A stretch of DNA of 64,000 nt, from NCBI GenBank assembly GCA_977030845.1, contig OZ365117.1, positions 3,038,001 to 3,102,000 of the forward strand, read 5' to 3'. The DNA is from Fimbriosthenelais zetlandica (lineage: Eukaryota). Made by a program: the position numbers. Below are positions 1 through 18,000 of this stretch, piece by piece; position 1 is the stretch's first letter; each line of letters starts with the position of its first letter.

Positions 1-3000
1 AAGATGCTGTTCATGTCTAATACAAAGTATCGGTAGGACAAAAGTCAGTTGCTTACCAAATGGCAGTTTAGCAGTTACAGGTTCAGTTTGAGCTGGATCA
101 CTTTCACCAATATCATTAACTGCTTTTATTTGGAAGATGTAATCTTTTCCTTCCACACATTTCTCCACCTTGAAGCTGAAGTCTTTGTCACTGACTTCTC
201 CGACCTTAACAAAGGCCTCACGTTTGACGTCGCGGCGTTCTATGACGTAGCCAGTAATGGGTGAGCCTCCATCGTGTTCAGGCTTCTCCCAACTCACCAC
301 AACAAAATCTTTGTAGATTTCTGTGGGACGAACATTCTGTGGAGGCGATGGGCGATCTAAAACAGAAGAAAAACATGTTGAATTTACTGGACTGGTCACT
401 TAGAACATGGTTGGCACTAAACTAATATTTCTAATGCTGAAAATACGGTACCTTTGACAGTGACATCAAATTCTGCGGATGCCGAGCCTGCTACATTTTC
501 AGCTGTCACTTTGTATGTGCCAGCATCAGCTGCTGTCAGGCCCTTCACCGCCAGCCTGGAATAGGTGCCCTGTGTCTCAATAGTGACACGGTTAGTGTTC
601 TCTAGTGTCACATCACCTCTTGACCAAGTGACAGTTGGTGTGGGTGTACCAGTGACTGTCACATAAAAGATCAAACTTCCCTCTGCCTTCAGTGCCTGAG
701 TCTCCTTGTACTTGTCTTCGTAGGTGATGACCGGTGCAACTGCAAAGCACAAAAACCATCATTCTCAAATTTCAGACCGTCAATAGCAAATTAAAAGACC
801 ATAACTTTACTGATTATTGGAATATCAAGAAGATTTCTCAGTTTAAGAACGCCCAGATCAAGATTGAATAGAAGAGATCTTACTATTGACTGTGAGTGTA
901 CATGAAGTCTCCACACGACCAAGCTTGTTGCCGGCCTCACAACGATATAGATGGTCGTCATTCAAATCTACCTTTGAAATCGTCAATGTTGCTACTTGAT
1001 TCTCATACGTCATGGCATATTTCTTGCCAGAACTAAGCTCTTCTTTGGAGTTCTTCCACCTGAAAAACGGTAGCATAATGTCCATATGAAGGGTGTAGCT
1101 TTTGAAACTAGTGTTTGGTTAAAGCACAGTGGAAACCAAAGATATTTGATAGTTAAGATAGAGTTGTTGCCTACCATTTAACCTTGGCAGCTGGATCTCC
1201 TGGCTTGATGGTACATTCCAGTGTTGCAGAGCAAGGAGAAGTCACAGTTTGGTCTTCCAGGGGTTTCACTAGTTCTGGTTTTTGCCCAGCTGAAATTGAA
1301 AAGCAAAAGACGTATATTCAATATAGAAAAAGATCAATATAGAAAGATTTTGAAACTTAGTCATGATGATATTGTTTCAGATCCAAAGGGCAGCAGTGCA
1401 AGGTACTTACATACGGGTTCCTTGAGAGTGACTGGCGGGTCGCTGGGATCAGACCATGGACCCTGTCCTGCCTTGTTGACAGCAGCCACACGGAACTCGT
1501 AAGTGATAGCTTCACCAAGTCTTGTCACTTTGTAGCCTGGTTCAGGTTTCTTGGTGTTGTCTGTGTCTCTGACCCAGGTGAGGGTACCTTCTATACGATG
1601 TTCCACCACGTAGTGAGTGATGGGGGCGCCACCGTCGTCAGATGGAGCTGTCCATTTAAGATCAACTGATGTTCCCCGGATGTTCTCATACTCGGCTCGT
1701 CCGGGTTTGCCTGGTTTTTCTGTAATTAACAAAAGATCAACATGAAGGTTTATTTACCATAAGATGACCAGTAACTGTGGTGATGTTCTGGTACTGAAAA
1801 GCCCAATGAAATGTTCAAATTGAGAAGGAAAGATTGGGAAGACTTACCATATGGATCCTTGGCAGTAAATGGTTCGGTTGGTGAACATGGTGGTCCAACT
1901 CCAACCTGGTTTTCAGCCATGATCCTGAACTCGTACTGATTACCTTCAATGAGTTCCTTCACCTTGTACTCGAGGTCTTTGACGGCTTCCTTGGTGATCT
2001 TTACCCATCGTGCACTGTCAGTCATTTTACGTTCTACATAATATCCAGTGATAGGCGAACCACCATCATTGGCTGGTGGTTGCCAGGTCAGAACACATGT
2101 TTCTGATGTGATATCGCTGACTGCAGGTGACTGGGGTGGACCTGGTGGATCTACAAGGAACAAATTTTCAAAATAATTTCAGTTTGCACATAAATTATCA
2201 ACATCATCCAAGAATTTGTCAAGAAGTTTATGAAAATAACATACCAAATTCGCTCTTAGCAGTGACAGGTTCTTTGAGCTCCGTGAATGGCCCTTGACCC
2301 ACGTCGTTGACAGCTGCCACTCTGAAGTAGTATTGCTTGTCCTTTACTAGGTTCTTCACGGTGTATTCCCACTCATCTGACGTCATGTCGTTGCCCCAAG
2401 AGCTGCGGGAAGCGTCACGCTTCTCAATGACGTATTTCTGAATGTCACAGCCGCCATCGTCATCTGGCTCCTCATAGGTTATTGTCACAGTAGATTCTGT
2501 GAACTCTTTGACCTTGAGTTCAGTAGGTGGTCCTGGTTTGTCTAGAGATAACAAAGTTTGTGTTTGACTTCCAATATCAATTAAACAAAAGGGTCAATGT
2601 TGCATCAGCTTTCTAAGGACAACAGCCAACAGATTTCTGTTGCACCAATGTCCATATCTTAAAGCATATTAGTTATTCCAAAGGAGATATGTTTTTGGAA
2701 CTTACCAAGGACAATGACCTTGACTGTGAGTGAGCACTCTCCATAAGGATTGCGCACAGTCACCACATATTTGCCTGAGTCGGGCCGCGTCATCTTCTTC
2801 AAACGCAAACATGTCATGCCATAGATTGTCTCTTCTTGGAATCGCTTGTCTGAGATGGGAGCGTTCTTAAACTTCCATTCTACATCAGGCATTGGGTGGG
2901 CTGAGAACGGCAGCTCTATGATGGTAGCCTGTCCTACTTTGAGTGTGCGCACCTCTTCAAAGTTGTCCAGGTTGAATGAAGGTGGCACTGAGAGAAAGAA

Positions 3001-15000: not shown

Positions 15001-18000
15001 TAATCTGTACTATATATAGTACTTAATCTGTAATCATATAGGCTATATTTATTTCCAATCACAATTCACAAATTATTAAATTGGTGAATTAAAGGTTTCT
15101 CTTACCGAATGGGTTTTTAGCGAGGATGGGTTCCTCGATCTGTGCTGGTTCACTAACCCCGTACTTGTTCTCAGCAAACACTCTCAACAAATACTCATTG
15201 CCTTCAATCAGCTTGAGTACGGTCATCTGGAGATCCTCTGTCTTTCCAGCATCTTTCCATGAACGGCGATTAATATCCTGCAAAAAACATCAGGAGATTC
15301 TTGTTATTTATCAGCTCTTTTACAACAGACCAATACCTCTATAAAAGAGTTTCAGAAATCTGTATAATCCGCTTTAAGTTCGACATCCACTCTACGATCT
15401 TTGGAAAAACAGATTTTTCTGATCGGCAAAGATCAAAATAAAATCGTTCCGGATCATTTCTCTATTGATTTAACATTGAAAAATCGGCGCCGATCCCAAG
15501 ATTTTGGCATCCACCAGCCCGATCATCTGTTTTTGGGGTCCCGATCGCCTGTGATCGCTTAAGATCGCAAAATCGGAATGAAAATCGGGCTGGTGGATGT
15601 CGGGCTTTAGATTCCATGTTTTCACAATATTGACGTTGACCAACCTTGAATTCTACAATGTAGCCGGTGATAGGGCTACCTCCATCATCTGCTGGCACCT
15701 CCCAGTGGAAGTCAGCAGTATCCGCCGTCACTCCAACTACGTTCGGTTTCTGCGGTGGTGATGGTTTGTCTAAAAATTAAAAATAAATACAATATGAACA
15801 AATGATTTGATATTATCATTTGACTATCAATCACCTAATATGTCGCCAATCATTCACAAGATGCCTCTGCTGCAAGGACCTGAACTTTCTGTCCCCAAGT
15901 GCCATATTTGTCAGAGCACTTGCAAATAACGCATATAGTAAGACCCTGCTGGTGCAGTTACACTTGCAGTAGATGCAACAGTTGCTCGTGCAGTATTCCT
16001 ATAACAATTCCCCAAGCAGTATGGACCCTGTTTTGAGCAGTATTCCTATAACAATTCCCCAAGCAGTATCAACCTTGTTTCGTGCAGTATGTCTATAGCA
16101 ATTCCCCAAGCAGTATCGACCCTTTTTCGTGCAGTATTCCTATAACAATTCCCCAAGCAGTATCGACCCTTTTTCGTGCAGTATTCCTATAACAATTCCC
16201 CAAGCAGTTTCAACCCTTTTTCGTGCAGTATTCCTATAACAATTCCCCAAGCAGTTTCAACCCTTTTTCGTGCAGTATTCCTATAATAATTCCCCAAGCA
16301 GTATCAACCCTGTTTCGTGCAGTATTCCTATAACAATTCCCCAAGCAGTATCGACCCTTTTTCGTGCAGTATTCCTATAACAATTCCCCAAGCAGTATCA
16401 ACCCTCTTTCGTGCAGTATTCCTATAACAATTCCCCAAGCAGTATCAACCCTGTTTCGTGCAGTATTCTTATGACAATTCAGTAAGTAGTATCAACCCTT
16501 TTTCGTGCAGTATTCCTATATCAATTCCCCAAGCAGTATCAACCCTTTTTTTAACCCTGCTACTCACCAAGCACCACCACCTTGACAATCATCGTTGCTT
16601 CCCCGTATTCATTGACGAGTTTAGCCGTGTACTCTCCTGAGTCCGGCCTCTCTCCGTCCTTTACACTGAAGGTTGTCTTGTTAACGGTGGTCGTTAGTTT
16701 AATACGCTCTGTATCCCGCACACTGCCCCCGTTAAACGTCATCTCTACAGACGGCTGAGGGTGAGCTGTGAACGGCAAGTCACGTGACTCGGAGCTTCCA
16801 GATTTCATGGTGATTGTGTCGTTAAACTGGTCATCCAGGAGGAACTTGGGCACAGCTGGAATAATAATAATAATAATTCATTTTGTATAGCGTAAAATCC
16901 ACAATAGTTTGTGCTCTAAACGCTGCTGACAGAAAAGTAGTATGGGAAAAGAGTATTGGAATTAACAGAAATAGTCTCTAAAAAGGTGTGTTTTTAATTT
17001 TGATTTTGAGAGAGAAATGAAAGAGAAGGGAAACATGTTAGATGGTGATGAGAAAGAGTTACTCCAGTTACAGCTGGAGCGGAAAGAGAAAGTAGACATG
17101 TTAGATGGTGATGAGAAAGAGTTACTCCAGTTACAGCTGGAGCGGAAAGAGAAAACAATGTTAGATTGCACTGAGAAAGAGTTACTCTAAAGAGTCACAG
17201 CTGGAGCGAAAAGAGAAAGAGACAATGTTAGATGACGCTGAGAAAGAGTTACTCCAGTTACAGCTGGAGCGAAAAGAGAAAGGAACAATGTTAGATGGTG
17301 CTGAGAAAGAGTTACTCCAGTCACAGCTGGAGCGAAAAGAGAAAGGAACAATGTTAGATGGTGCTGAGAAAGAGTTACTCCAGTCACAGCTGGAGCGAAA
17401 AGAGAAAGTAGACATGTGCTGAGAAAGAGTTACTGTATGTCCATATAGCAGGACTCAACGTGAGACAAACTGTTACGACTGTGAAAAAAAGTCAGTGAGA
17501 AGGTACTCCTTTGTGGGACGGACATCTACCACTGCATTGGAGCAGTCACTATCACAATGCTATAGGAGACACATTAAAATCACTCAAATTTTAATCATCT
17601 GATCAGCAAAAAGTGCTCTTGGAGCTTTACAACTTGCTAAGCTCCATCAGACTTTCTAGTGACCCTATTGCTTAGAATAGCATGATAGATGGTCAGAAAT
17701 ATAAAAGCCAACCAACACTCACCCTCAATAGAAAGTTTAGCCTTGGAAGACTTGCTTCTGGCCATGGCCACATACTCATTGATGTCCTCATCAGTGACAT
17801 CATGGATAATCAGTTGGTGGACAGTGTCCTTCATGATGATCTCGTATTTAGGACTCCTGTCTATAGGCTCGGTGCCGCGCAACCATTGTATCTTGATGTT
17901 TGCCTTGGTGAGCTCACATTCCAGCGTCACCGTACATGGCAACTCCTTGACAACCTGGTCCTGGAGATGCCTCACAAAGTCGATAGGTTCCTCTGCAAAT

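What the first reader, a model, noticed from the sequence alone, without database searches (positions are those of the whole stretch)
57..16855. A-band region built from an (Ig-Ig-Fn3-Fn3-Fn3)x2 10-domain super-repeat
Seen: the order from 16855 down is Ig,F,F,F,Ig,Ig,F,F,F,Ig,Ig,F,F,F,Ig,Ig,F,F,F,Ig,Ig,F,F,F,Ig,Ig,F, and sequence paralogy has a period of 10 (VEPINF/VPPSF pair alternating with SGxxPE/VAP pair). Established: vertebrate titin uses 7- and 11-domain super-repeats and twitchin/projectin use Fn3-Fn3-Ig; none has this Ig-Ig doublet pattern. Inference: a different ruler for the myosin filament periodicity. I cannot verify whether this pattern is already described for an invertebrate connectin.
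Basis: partly seen in the sequence, partly recalled or inferred. Interest (0 to 1): 0.68.

Follow-up and report, generated by a model that had tools for sequence, protein, structure and literature searches.

The report
Titin-like gene with five/ten-domain repeat
The stretch encodes the first thick-filament-type part of a giant titin-like muscle protein whose domains repeat as Ig-Ig-Fn3-Fn3-Fn3, an order not used by the well-studied titins, so it could serve as a natural test of how titin measures out the myosin filament.

Summary
Observation confirmed. It is the start of the Fn3-bearing, A-band-type part of a titin/connectin-like gene. Upstream lie 33 Ig pieces and PEVK-like ORFs, and no Fn3.

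The robust period is five: an I-band-type Ig, an A-band-type Ig, then three Fn3 of distinct types. A period of ten is supported at two of five paired positions and undecided at three.

Only about 2.7 units are in the window. Units 2 and 3 are old duplicates patched by gene conversion (67-99 % nucleotide identity per exon), so not an assembly artefact.

The closest solved relatives are human titin C-zone repeats, about half identical.

"No Ig-Ig doublet known" is too strong. Titin's P-zone is Ig-Ig-Fn-Fn-Ig-Ig-Fn, its Ig-Ig-Fn-Fn part conserved in twitchins (PMC12981300), but not as a super-repeat.

The "different ruler" idea is untested. At 3.9-4.0 nm per domain, ten domains span 39-40 nm, not 43.

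Eight literature searches found no description. The amphioxus connectin paper and supplements were unreadable.

Verdict: new variant of a known kind, moderate interest.

The parts
   Evidence: Pfam I-set 2.4e-8; coordinates; falls among the I-band Ig in the tree
16569..16856 (-). unit 1 position 2: Ig, A-band type
   Evidence: Pfam I-set 1e-9; clade with the other position-2 Ig, 97/89
15645..15770 (-). unit 1 position 3: Fn3, first exon piece (phase-0 intron inside the domain)
   Evidence: Pfam fn3 8.4e-6, profile 1-41; splice reading
15107..15277 (-). unit 1 position 3: Fn3, second exon piece
   Evidence: no Pfam hit; own Fn3 HMM 44.4 bits, profile 44-101
14477..14779 (-). unit 1 position 4: Fn3 (shares one exon with position 5)
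   Evidence: Pfam fn3, two stretches, 1.2e-30 for the exon
14177..14476 (-). unit 1 position 5: Fn3
   Evidence: same exon as position 4
13583..13870 (-). unit 1 position 6: Ig, I-band type (unsplit here)
   Evidence: Pfam I-set 7.7e-16; best solved match titin I65-I70, 3b43
11895..12182 (-). unit 1 position 7: Ig, A-band type
   Evidence: Pfam I-set 8.4e-14; clade with position-7 Ig, 84/75
11300..11602 (-). unit 1 position 8: Fn3
   Evidence: Pfam fn3 3.1e-12
10105..10404 (-). unit 1 position 9: Fn3
   Evidence: Pfam fn3 1.7e-16; clade with unit 2 position 9, 97/95
8986..9279 (-). unit 1 position 10: Fn3
   Evidence: Pfam fn3 1.9e-16
8363..8635 (-). unit 2 position 1: Ig, I-band type (VEPINF)
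   Evidence: Pfam I-set 2.6e-10; best solved matches MyBP-C and titin I-band Ig
7904..8185 (-). unit 2 position 2: Ig, A-band type (VPPSF)
   Evidence: Pfam I-set 3e-11; matches all three Ig of the human titin C-zone repeat 8g4l_bm at 26-27 bits each
7472..7768 (-). unit 2 position 3: Fn3
   Evidence: Pfam fn3 2.6e-15
6361..6663 (-). unit 2 position 4: Fn3
   Evidence: Pfam fn3 6e-16
5706..6014 (-). unit 2 position 5: Fn3
   Evidence: Pfam fn3 1.2e-15
5425..5535 (-). unit 2 position 6: Ig, first exon piece (phase-2 intron inside the domain)
   Evidence: sequence read; own Ig HMM 22.1 bits; not sent to Pfam
5149..5319 (-). unit 2 position 6: Ig, second exon piece
   Evidence: Pfam I-set 2.5e-13, profile 36-90
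4620..4907 (-). unit 2 position 7: Ig, A-band type (VAPVIT)
   Evidence: Pfam I-set 3.8e-17
4225..4524 (-). unit 2 position 8: Fn3
   Evidence: Pfam fn3 1.1e-13
3827..4120 (-). unit 2 position 9: Fn3 (shares one exon with position 10)
   Evidence: Pfam fn3, two stretches, 1.2e-35 for the exon; titin chains best in PDB
3533..3826 (-). unit 2 position 10: Fn3
   Evidence: same exon as position 9
3153..3425 (-). unit 3 position 1: Ig, I-band type
   Evidence: Pfam I-set 1.5e-11; 76.2 % nucleotide identity to unit 2
2707..2988 (-). unit 3 position 2: Ig, A-band type
   Evidence: Pfam I-set 3.4e-11; 96.1 % nucleotide identity to unit 2
2246..2542 (-). unit 3 position 3: Fn3
   Evidence: Pfam fn3 2.5e-15; 99.0 % nucleotide identity to unit 2
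1849..2151 (-). unit 3 position 4: Fn3
   Evidence: Pfam fn3 1.2e-16; 82.5 % nucleotide identity to unit 2, with 43 silent codon differences and 5 residue differences
1412..1720 (-). unit 3 position 5: Fn3
   Evidence: Pfam fn3 2.3e-15; 99.4 % nucleotide identity to unit 2
1177..1287 (-). unit 3 position 6: Ig, first exon piece
   Evidence: sequence read; own Ig HMM 23.0 bits; not sent to Pfam
885..1058 (-). unit 3 position 6: Ig, second exon piece
   Evidence: Pfam I-set 4.4e-14, profile 31-90
453..740 (-). unit 3 position 7: Ig, A-band type
   Evidence: Pfam I-set 2.7e-18
58..357 (-). unit 3 position 8: Fn3; the gene runs on beyond the window's first base
   Evidence: Pfam fn3 7.5e-14; donor site G|GTAAG at 57

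Best explanation
Positions 58-17,993 of the minus strand encode the beginning of the Fn3-bearing, thick-filament-type part of a titin/connectin-like giant muscle protein. The I-band-type part (tandem Ig, PEVK-like spring segments) lies upstream in the same window and on the same strand.

The chain is built mostly as one domain per phase-1 exon. Its five-domain subgroups are an I-band-type Ig, an A-band-type Ig, and three Fn3 of three distinct sequence types. Two such subgroups make a ten-domain super-repeat that was duplicated as a block. About 2.7 units are visible, and units 2 and 3 have been partly homogenised by gene conversion.

Shown: domain identities and order, exon phases, positional paralogy, and closest solved relatives.

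Inferred from what is established for titin's A-band: the segment lies along the myosin filament as a periodic scaffold. If each domain spans 3.9-4.0 nm as in vertebrate titin, the subgroup would recur every ~19.5-20 nm and the super-repeat every ~39-40 nm. The simplest origin is the addition of an I-band-type Ig exon in front of the Ig of an Ig-Fn3-Fn3-Fn3 block. All these exons are phase 1-1, so such an addition would keep the frame.
For: Domain order:
- Pfam exon by exon matched 25 of 26 in-region ORF pieces to I-set or fn3.
- A whole-window HMM map shows 33 Ig pieces and no Fn3 above 18,100, then the periodic Ig/Fn3 string.

One gene:
- All domain-boundary junctions read as AG|..N|GT in phase 1, with no in-frame stop at exon ends.
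- Upstream ORFs are 61-70 % P+E+V+K with 144/147-nt repeats.

Titin kinship:
- Every Fn3 exon searched, and the position-2 Ig, has human titin C-zone chains 8g4l_bm / 8q6t_I as best solved match. The two-Fn3 exon scores E 1e-188 summed over 7 stretches.
- I count 49 of 101 identical residues in the best printed stretch.
- Twitchin 3uto is weaker (56-66 bits).

Two Ig classes:
- Position 2 and 7 Ig form a clade (99/97) apart from all 21 full-length I-band Ig plus positions 1 and 6.
- They are 14-18 % (median) identical to the I-band Ig. Positions 1 and 6 are 24-30 % (median) and 33-44 % (maximum) identical to them.

Three Fn3 types recurring every five domains: clades {3,8} 97/95 and {5,10} 97/97; position 9 forms a clade at 97/95, and the three position-4 domains lie near it but do not form one clade.

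Period ten:
- Position 2 (97/89) and position 7 (84/75) each unite unit 1 with units 2/3.
- Pairing the middle Fn3 within a unit is rejected (AU p 0.0003 and 0.0007).

Real coding copies under selection:
- Unit 2 versus unit 3 at position 4 has 43 silent codon differences against 5 residue differences in 101 codons.
- Per-exon nucleotide identity is a mosaic from 67 to 99 %.
- Conversion tracts run through introns (18-745 ~ 4185-4912, 95 %).

Chain density: 976-977 residues per ten domains, against 1084 per eleven in the titin chain 8g4l_bm.
Against: - The window ends inside unit 3, so persistence of the pattern through the A-band part is unknown. This segment sits exactly at the I/A transition, where vertebrate titin has 14 irregular junction domains (PMC7427331).
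- The period of ten is undecided at three of five paired positions. AU p is 0.11-0.30 both for position-wise and for copy-wise groupings of the first and third Fn3. Positions 1 and 6 show no position-specific signal between units.
- The three Fn3 types do not map cleanly onto vertebrate types A, B and C. Position 3 is best on type A by about 2 bits. Position 4 is best on A (85) and B (83). Position 5 is best on B (type layout from PMC10665226).
- 39-40 nm is not a whole number of 14.3-14.5 nm myosin crowns, so a simple ruler reading does not fall out.
- There is no transcript evidence. Every exon is phase 1-1 and could be skipped.
- Organism, kinase end and localisation are unknown.
Confidence: 0.6

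Rival explanations
1. The segment is only the counterpart of the irregular I-band/A-band junction or of an edge zone. The main thick-filament part further downstream uses another repeat (for instance 7/11 domains or Fn3-Fn3-Ig), so the 5/10 period is local and not the filament ruler.
For: The first Fn3 in the window (15,770) comes directly after the Ig tandem. Vertebrate titin has 14 non-canonical junction domains at this place, and different repeats in its D and C zones (PMC7427331, passages read). Only about 2.7 units are visible.
Against: Unit 1 differs from unit 2 by 31-67 % of residues at the same position, yet keeps the full ten-domain order. The pattern is therefore old and maintained, and 27 of 27 domains fit it. 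The vertebrate junction as described there contains a run of six Fn3 and no internal Ig pair.
Confidence: 0.2
2. The extra I-band-type Ig exons (positions 1 and 6) are cassette exons skipped in some or all muscles. The mature protein would then carry Ig-Fn3-Fn3-Fn3 blocks, or a muscle-specific mix.
For: All domain exons are phase 1-1, so skipping keeps the frame. Positions 1 and 6 are the least conserved between units 2 and 3 (76 % and 67-71 % nucleotide identity), and they group with the I-band Ig. It is recalled, not checked here, that I-band Ig exons of titins are often alternatively spliced.
Against: Positions 1 and 6 keep open frames, canonical splice sites and more silent than replacement differences (position 1: 32 silent, 16 replacement). 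No transcript data were available either way.
Confidence: 0.1
3. The repetition is an assembly artefact: haplotypes or collapsed and expanded repeats laid in tandem.
For: Several exons of units 2 and 3 are 98-99 % identical.
Against: Identity between units 2 and 3 is a mosaic: 67, 71, 76 and 82.5 % at positions 6b, 6a, 1 and 4, and 94-99 % elsewhere. Most introns do not align, and the offset between units changes from 4167 to 5226. Unit 1 is only 33-69 % identical in protein and has different intron positions.
Confidence: 0.03
4. The gene is not the titin orthologue. It would be another member of the family, such as a twitchin/projectin-type gene or one of the two 'mixed' lophotrochozoan titins, with a function other than length control (for example catch or stiffness regulation).
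For: [quoted passage not shown] The organism is unknown. The Atlas search named only Chordata and Mollusca as the commonest phyla of the nearest clusters.
Against: The Fn3-Fn3-Ig order of twitchin/projectin (recalled) is not present. Solved titin chains score higher than twitchin 3uto, although only one twitchin fragment is in the PDB.
Confidence: 0.15

Closest known systems
Vertebrate titin A-band super-repeats (D-zone Ig-Fn-Fn-Ig-Fn-Fn-Fn; C-zone Ig-Fn-Fn-Ig-Fn-Fn-Fn-Ig-Fn-Fn-Fn)
   Same: I-set Ig and Fn3 in a strict nested period. Fn3 fall into position-specific types (PMC10665226). The A-band-type Ig opens with a PP-x-x-x-LD-like start. Domains are about 98 residues with near-zero linkers. 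These are the best solved matches.
   Different: The unit is 5/10 domains, not 7/11. Every Fn3 triplet is preceded by two Ig, not one, and there is no Ig-Fn-Fn block. Fn3 types do not map one to one. Here most domains have their own exon.
Titin P-zone A164-A170 (Ig-Ig-FnIII-FnIII-Ig-Ig-FnIII); its A164-167 part is conserved in twitchins (PMC12981300)
   Same: Ig-Ig pairs followed by Fn3 within the thick-filament part, occurring twice in a row.
   Different: The P-zone has two and one Fn3 after its pairs, occurs once, and lies next to the kinase. Here three Fn3 follow each pair, the unit is repeated, and it lies at the I-band end. Solved P-zone Ig (3lcy, 2nzi) are only weak matches (E 3e-4 to 4e-6).
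Twitchin / projectin Fn3-Fn3-Ig repeats (order recalled, not checked here)
   Same: A periodic Ig/Fn3 thick-filament protein of invertebrates.
   Different: That is a three-domain unit with a single Ig. Twitchin 3uto scores lower than titin chains. In ecdysozoans the I-band part is a separate gene (PMC12063666), whereas here Ig tandem, PEVK-like ORFs and Fn3 region share one strand and frame logic.
Myomesin (Ig-Ig-Fn3x5-Ig x5; PMC3279349 was the only hit for the pattern string, seen in the search listing only)
   Same: It begins Ig-Ig-Fn3-Fn3-Fn3, and it is a myosin-binding sarcomere protein.
   Different: The order is not repeated and the protein is small. Myomesin chains score below titin.
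Titin I-band 6-Ig and 10-Ig super-repeats (PMC12241362)
   Same: A ten-domain block duplicated in tandem, with the most recent copies most alike.
   Different: Those blocks are Ig only and belong to the elastic I-band function.

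Membership tests
Titin/connectin family of giant sarcomeric proteins | Long tandem arrays of I-set Ig domains | tested here: met
   33 Ig pieces upstream of 18,100 plus 12 Ig in 453-17,993; Pfam I-set
Titin/connectin family of giant sarcomeric proteins | Ig and Fn3 interleaved in a periodic super-repeat | tested here: met
   27 of 27 domains fit Ig-Ig-Fn3-Fn3-Fn3
Titin/connectin family of giant sarcomeric proteins | PEVK-like disordered spring segment in the same gene | tested here: met
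   ORFs 36652-41505 and 44648-46711 are 70 % and 61 % P+E+V+K, and every 250-residue window exceeds the 40 % criterion used in PMC12063666. That they belong to the same transcript is inferred from strand and exon phase.
Titin/connectin family of giant sarcomeric proteins | Closest relatives of the Ig/Fn3 domains are titin A-band domains | tested here: met
   Best PDB chains are titin 8g4l_bm / 8q6t_I for 4 of 4 Fn3 queries and for the position-2 Ig. Only solved structures were searched; the large protein databases were closed.
Titin/connectin family of giant sarcomeric proteins | Kinase domain near the C-terminus | not testable with these tools
   It would lie beyond window position 1.
Titin/connectin family of giant sarcomeric proteins | Localisation from I-band to thick filament; binding to myosin | not testable with these tools
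   This needs microscopy or binding assays.
Vertebrate-type A-band super-repeat (7 or 11 domains) | Order Ig-Fn-Fn-Ig-Fn-Fn-Fn(-Ig-Fn-Fn-Fn), with a single Ig between Fn3 groups | tested here: not met
   No Ig-Fn-Fn block is present, and every Fn3 triplet is preceded by two Ig.
Vertebrate-type A-band super-repeat (7 or 11 domains) | Fn3 of types A, B, C by place in the tandem (PMC10665226) | tested here: inconclusive
   Three positional types exist here, but their best matches on the titin chains are A (49 bits against 47.5 on the next-best type) for position 3, A/B (85/83) for position 4 and B (52) for position 5.
Twitchin/projectin | Fn3-Fn3-Ig repeat (recalled) | tested here: not met
   No Fn3 pair followed by a single Ig occurs in the 27 domains.
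Titin P-zone / twitchin pre-kinase segment | Ig-Ig-Fn-Fn-Ig-Ig-Fn directly before the kinase (PMC12981300) | tested here: not met
   Ig pairs are present, but each is followed by three Fn3. The segment follows the I-band Ig tandem. Adjacency to a kinase cannot be seen.

The most novel reading that the evidence does not exclude
In this lineage the whole thick-filament part of titin is ruled in five- and ten-domain units. The extra I-band-type Ig in each subgroup would either lengthen the axial repeat to about 39-40 nm (8/3 of a myosin crown, so 30 domains per 8 crowns of about 116 nm), or project from the filament as a built-in accessory site, doing in cis what MyBP-C does in trans in vertebrates. 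Either way it would be a natural variant of the titin ruler. It would test whether filament periodicity follows titin's domain count or titin adapts to myosin.
Probability: 0.2. Interest if true: 0.72.

Novelty: new variant of a known kind. Interest (0 to 1): 0.5.

Why it matters
The titin ruler idea rests on the match between the 11-domain C-zone repeat and the 43-nm myosin/MyBP-C period (PMC7427331). It also rests on one Ig-led subgroup per myosin crown.

A titin relative whose subgroups have five domains and whose super-repeat has ten would break that arithmetic. At vertebrate spacing, ten domains span 39-40 nm.

If the pattern runs through the A-band part, measuring the thick-filament periodicities and the domain spacing in that animal would be informative. 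It would show whether titin's domain count dictates filament structure, or whether the chain path bends or stretches to fit myosin.

The region also gives a clean example of how such super-repeats grow. It shows block duplication of phase-1 exons, gene conversion between neighbouring units, and intron gain or loss that differs between units.

Tried and rejected
Every search used one exon or part of one exon. For domains split by an intron, only the longer piece entered the trees, so c1p3a, c2p6a and c3p6a were left out. Twelve of the 33 upstream Ig pieces that were not full length were left out.
It returns no coordinates, and a ten-domain model would need joined exons. The length estimate therefore rests on published nm per domain.
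- Fn3 type mapping to vertebrate A/B/C was inconclusive.
- A link between the position-1 Ig and MyBP-C: the top E-value for MyBP-C comes from summing several domains. The best single stretch scores 27 bits, and titin I-band chains match over two stretches (63.8 bits in total for 7ahs). I read no special kinship into it.
- P-zone kinship: the matches were weak.
- Organism: the Atlas search gave only 'commonest Chordata' or 'Mollusca'. No eukaryotic genome collection was on hand, and genome contigs (bacteria and archaea) was not used.
- RNA genes: none were found (Rfam, ARAGORN).
- Literature:
  - The pattern-string searches found only the myomesin and P-zone papers.
  - The topic searches found no description of this order.
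  - Ohtsuka et al. 2011 on amphioxus connectin is not held.
  - Supplements are closed. Table S1 and file S1 of PMC12063666, which list titin homologues of 15 species, may already show this order.
- The intron-by-intron identity table failed (script error) and was not repeated. One search gives the conserved tracts instead.
- Human origin: I do not take the window for human. Its domain order differs from human titin's, and the best matches to human titin chains are about half identical.

Full report
What the window is. The window has no N and is eukaryotic in build: short open frames on the minus strand separated by introns. From about 63,700 down to position 1, the minus strand carries one Ig-type frame after another. 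Two large PEVK-like ORFs lie among them. They are 36652-41505 (70 % P+E+V+K) and 44648-46711 (61 %), with 144/147-nt repeats. A 1118-residue Ser/Glu-rich ORF has no Pfam family. I do not take the window for human. The domain order found below is not that of human titin, and the best matches to human titin chains are only about half identical. I count 49 of 101 identical residues in the best stretch printed.

Checking the observation. I scanned the minus-strand ORF pieces exon by exon against Pfam. In 1-16,877, 25 of 26 pieces matched I-set or fn3 (and the first six proteins). The one miss, 15092-15289, is the second half of an Fn3 split by an intron. Two short first halves of split Ig domains (5425-5535, 1177-1287) were read directly. 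HMMs built from the window's own domains then mapped the whole window. This gave 33 Ig pieces and no Fn3 above 18,100. Below that the order is Ig Ig | F F F | Ig Ig | F F F | Ig Ig | F F F | Ig Ig | F F F | Ig Ig | F F F | Ig Ig | F. Those HMMs match their own training rows by construction, so only the absence of Fn3 upstream is new information from that call. Only 2 of 13,037,895 orderings of 11 Ig and 16 Fn3 are perfectly five-periodic.

Gene structure. Every junction at a domain boundary reads as a phase-1 intron: an AG acceptor and an N|GT donor after the first base of a codon. Three introns lie inside domains. One is a phase-0 intron in the first Fn3 of unit 1. The others are phase-2 introns at the same place in the position-6 Ig of units 2 and 3. 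Two exons carry two Fn3 each, namely positions 4+5 of unit 1 and positions 9+10 of unit 2. Intron positions therefore differ between unit 1 and unit 2, and agree between units 2 and 3. The first residue of each piece was read in the exon's own frame. Where the upstream donor base is not G it may differ: before the two position-6 first pieces, which I started one residue later, and before the position-7 Ig of unit 3.

Period five. In a maximum-likelihood tree of 16 Fn3 rows, the Fn3 fall into three positional types. For the split domain only the longer piece was used; c1p3a was left out.
- The first Fn3 of the triplet (positions 3 and 8) form a clade at 97/95.
- The last (positions 5 and 10) form a clade at 97/97.
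- Of the middle ones, position 9 forms a clade at 97/95. The three position-4 domains lie near it but do not form one clade.

In a tree of 33 Ig rows, the second Ig of each pair (positions 2 and 7) forms a clade at 99/97. It stands apart from all 21 I-band Ig and from the first Ig of each pair. The rows were 12 Ig from the region and 21 full-length I-band Ig of the window. Left out were 12 partial upstream pieces and the two short first halves. The first Ig of each pair (positions 1 and 6) is as similar to I-band Ig (maximum 33-44 %) as to its counterpart in the other unit (33-36 %).

Matches to solved structures agree with this split.
- The position-2 Ig matches all three Ig of the human titin C-zone super-repeat chain 8g4l_bm at 26-27 bits each.
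- The position-1 Ig is best on MyBP-C and titin I-band chains.
- The position-6 Ig is best on titin I65-I70, 3b43.

Each subgroup is therefore an I-band-type Ig, an A-band-type Ig and an Fn3 triplet.

Period ten. Same-position identity between unit 1 and unit 2 is 33-69 %.
- Position 2 (97/89) and position 7 (84/75) each unite unit 1 with units 2/3.
- Position 9 does the same (97/95).
- Trees that instead pair the middle Fn3 within a unit are rejected (AU p 0.0003 and 0.0007).
- For the first and third Fn3, both the position-wise and the copy-wise groupings survive (p 0.11-0.30).
- Positions 1 and 6 are unresolved.

So the ten-domain block was duplicated as a block. This is shown by two of five paired positions, and the rest are compatible.

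Are units 2 and 3 independent? Their exons range from 67 to 99 % nucleotide identity:

| Position | Nucleotide identity, unit 2 vs unit 3 (%) |
|---|---|
| 6b | 67 |
| 6a | 71 |
| 1 | 76 |
| 4 | 82.5 |
| 7 | 94 |
| 2 | 96 |
| 8 | 98 |
| 3 | 99 |
| 5 | 99.4 |

At position 4 there are 43 silent codon differences against 5 residue changes in 101 codons. High-identity tracts run through introns: 18-745 against 4185-4912 at 95 %, and 2239-2991 against 7465-8188 at 87 %. Other introns do not align. This is an old duplicate under purifying selection with patches of gene conversion, not an assembly artefact.

What it is. The Fn3 exons and the position-2 Ig have titin chains from the human cardiac thick filament (8g4l_bm, 8q6t_I) as their best solved matches. 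The next best are other titin A-band fragments, MyBP-C and myomesin. Twitchin 3uto scores lower. With the Ig tandem and PEVK-like ORFs upstream on the same strand, this is a titin/connectin-like gene caught at its transition from the I-band-type to the A-band-type part. The kinase end lies outside the window. The organism is unknown. The Atlas search named only Chordata and Mollusca as commonest phyla of the nearest clusters. PMC12063666 (passages read) says chordates have one long titin, and that molluscs and annelids have two with mixed I- and A-band features.

How it likely works. In vertebrates the A-band part of titin lies straight along the myosin filament at 3.89-4.02 nm per domain, and each Ig-led subgroup is assigned to one myosin crown (PMC7427331, passages read). 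By analogy this region should be a periodic thick-filament scaffold; that step is inference. The chain is as compact as titin's, with 976-977 residues per ten domains against 1084 per eleven. At vertebrate spacing a subgroup spans 19.4-20.1 nm and the super-repeat 38.9-40.2 nm. Neither is a whole number of 14.3-14.5 nm crowns. Ten domains would need 4.29-4.35 nm each to span three crowns, while 30 domains come to about 117-121 nm against 114-116 nm for eight crowns. The 'different ruler' is therefore possible but not shown. The extra Ig could equally leave the filament axis. All exons are phase 1-1, so adding an I-band-type Ig exon in front of an Ig-Fn3x3 block is a simple origin, and skipping it in some transcripts is equally possible. 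The three Fn3 types could not be matched one to one with vertebrate types A, B and C (PMC10665226, passages read).

Comparison with what is known. Vertebrate D- and C-zone repeats have a single Ig between Fn3 groups (PMC7427331). The statement that no relative has Ig pairs is too strong. PMC12981300 (passages read) describes the P-zone as Ig-Ig-FnIII-FnIII-Ig-Ig-FnIII and says these are the only Ig pairs of A-band titin. [quoted passage not shown] That segment occurs once, next to the kinase, with two and one Fn3 after its pairs. Solved P-zone Ig are only weak matches here. Myomesin starts Ig-Ig-Fn3x5 but does not repeat (PMC3279349, seen in the search listing only). The Fn3-Fn3-Ig order of twitchin/projectin is recalled, not checked.

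Is it in print? Searches for the pattern written in several ways found only the myomesin and P-zone papers. Topic searches found no description of a five- or ten-domain Ig-Ig-Fn3x3 super-repeat. This covers only the held open-access library. The amphioxus connectin paper (Ohtsuka et al. 2011) is not held. Supplements, including the sequence set of PMC12063666, were closed. The large protein databases were also closed, so no survey of orthologues was possible. Automatic annotations of invertebrate titins may well already display this order.

Verdict. I rate it a new variant of a known kind, of moderate interest, limited by the window edge and by the lack of organism, transcript and filament data.

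Noticed in passing
window 15361-15610 (-), 31829-32077 (-), 21466-21688 (+): A dispersed element of about 240 nt with 15-nt terminal inverted repeats (MITE-like), in three copies about 81 % identical. Two copies sit in introns that split a domain: the Fn3 intron 15278-15644, which only unit 1 has, and the intron after the half-Ig exon 32056-32253. They begin 17-34 nt after the donor. The element fills most of the intron but not all of it, so it does not prove intron gain by insertion.
   Followed up: partly
window 6718-7383, 9340-9881, 12242-13531, 15986-16550; also 17020-17417: The same 47-nt minisatellite (11-27 copies, over 90 % alike) lies in four non-homologous introns of the Fn3 region. 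A 63-nt minisatellite lies in the intron between the two Ig of unit 1.
   Followed up: partly
window 36652-41505 and 44648-46711, minus strand: Two very large open frames rich in E, K and P (70 % and 61 % P+E+V+K) are built from about 24 and about 6 copies of a 144/147-nt (48/49-residue) unit. They are PEVK-like spring segments with Ig exons between them. Neither repeat segment matches a Pfam family: the first ORF has none at all, and the second matches only Ig families, through the Ig domain at its end.
   Followed up: partly
window 50840-54193, minus strand: A 1118-residue open frame rich in Ser, Glu, Leu and Asp, without any Pfam family. It is flanked by Ig exons and is presumably a unique insertion of the I-band part.
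   Followed up: partly
window 59848-60135 and 23672-23989, minus strand: Two stretches whose translations share a proline-rich pattern. This looks like another dispersed repeat in introns. It was seen only in the ORF listing.
   Followed up: no
window 18-745 vs 4185-4912; 1402-1725 vs 5696-6019: Gene-conversion-like tracts between units 2 and 3. Identity is 95 % across exon, intron and exon, and 99.4 % across one exon. Neighbouring exons are 67-83 % identical.
   Followed up: yes
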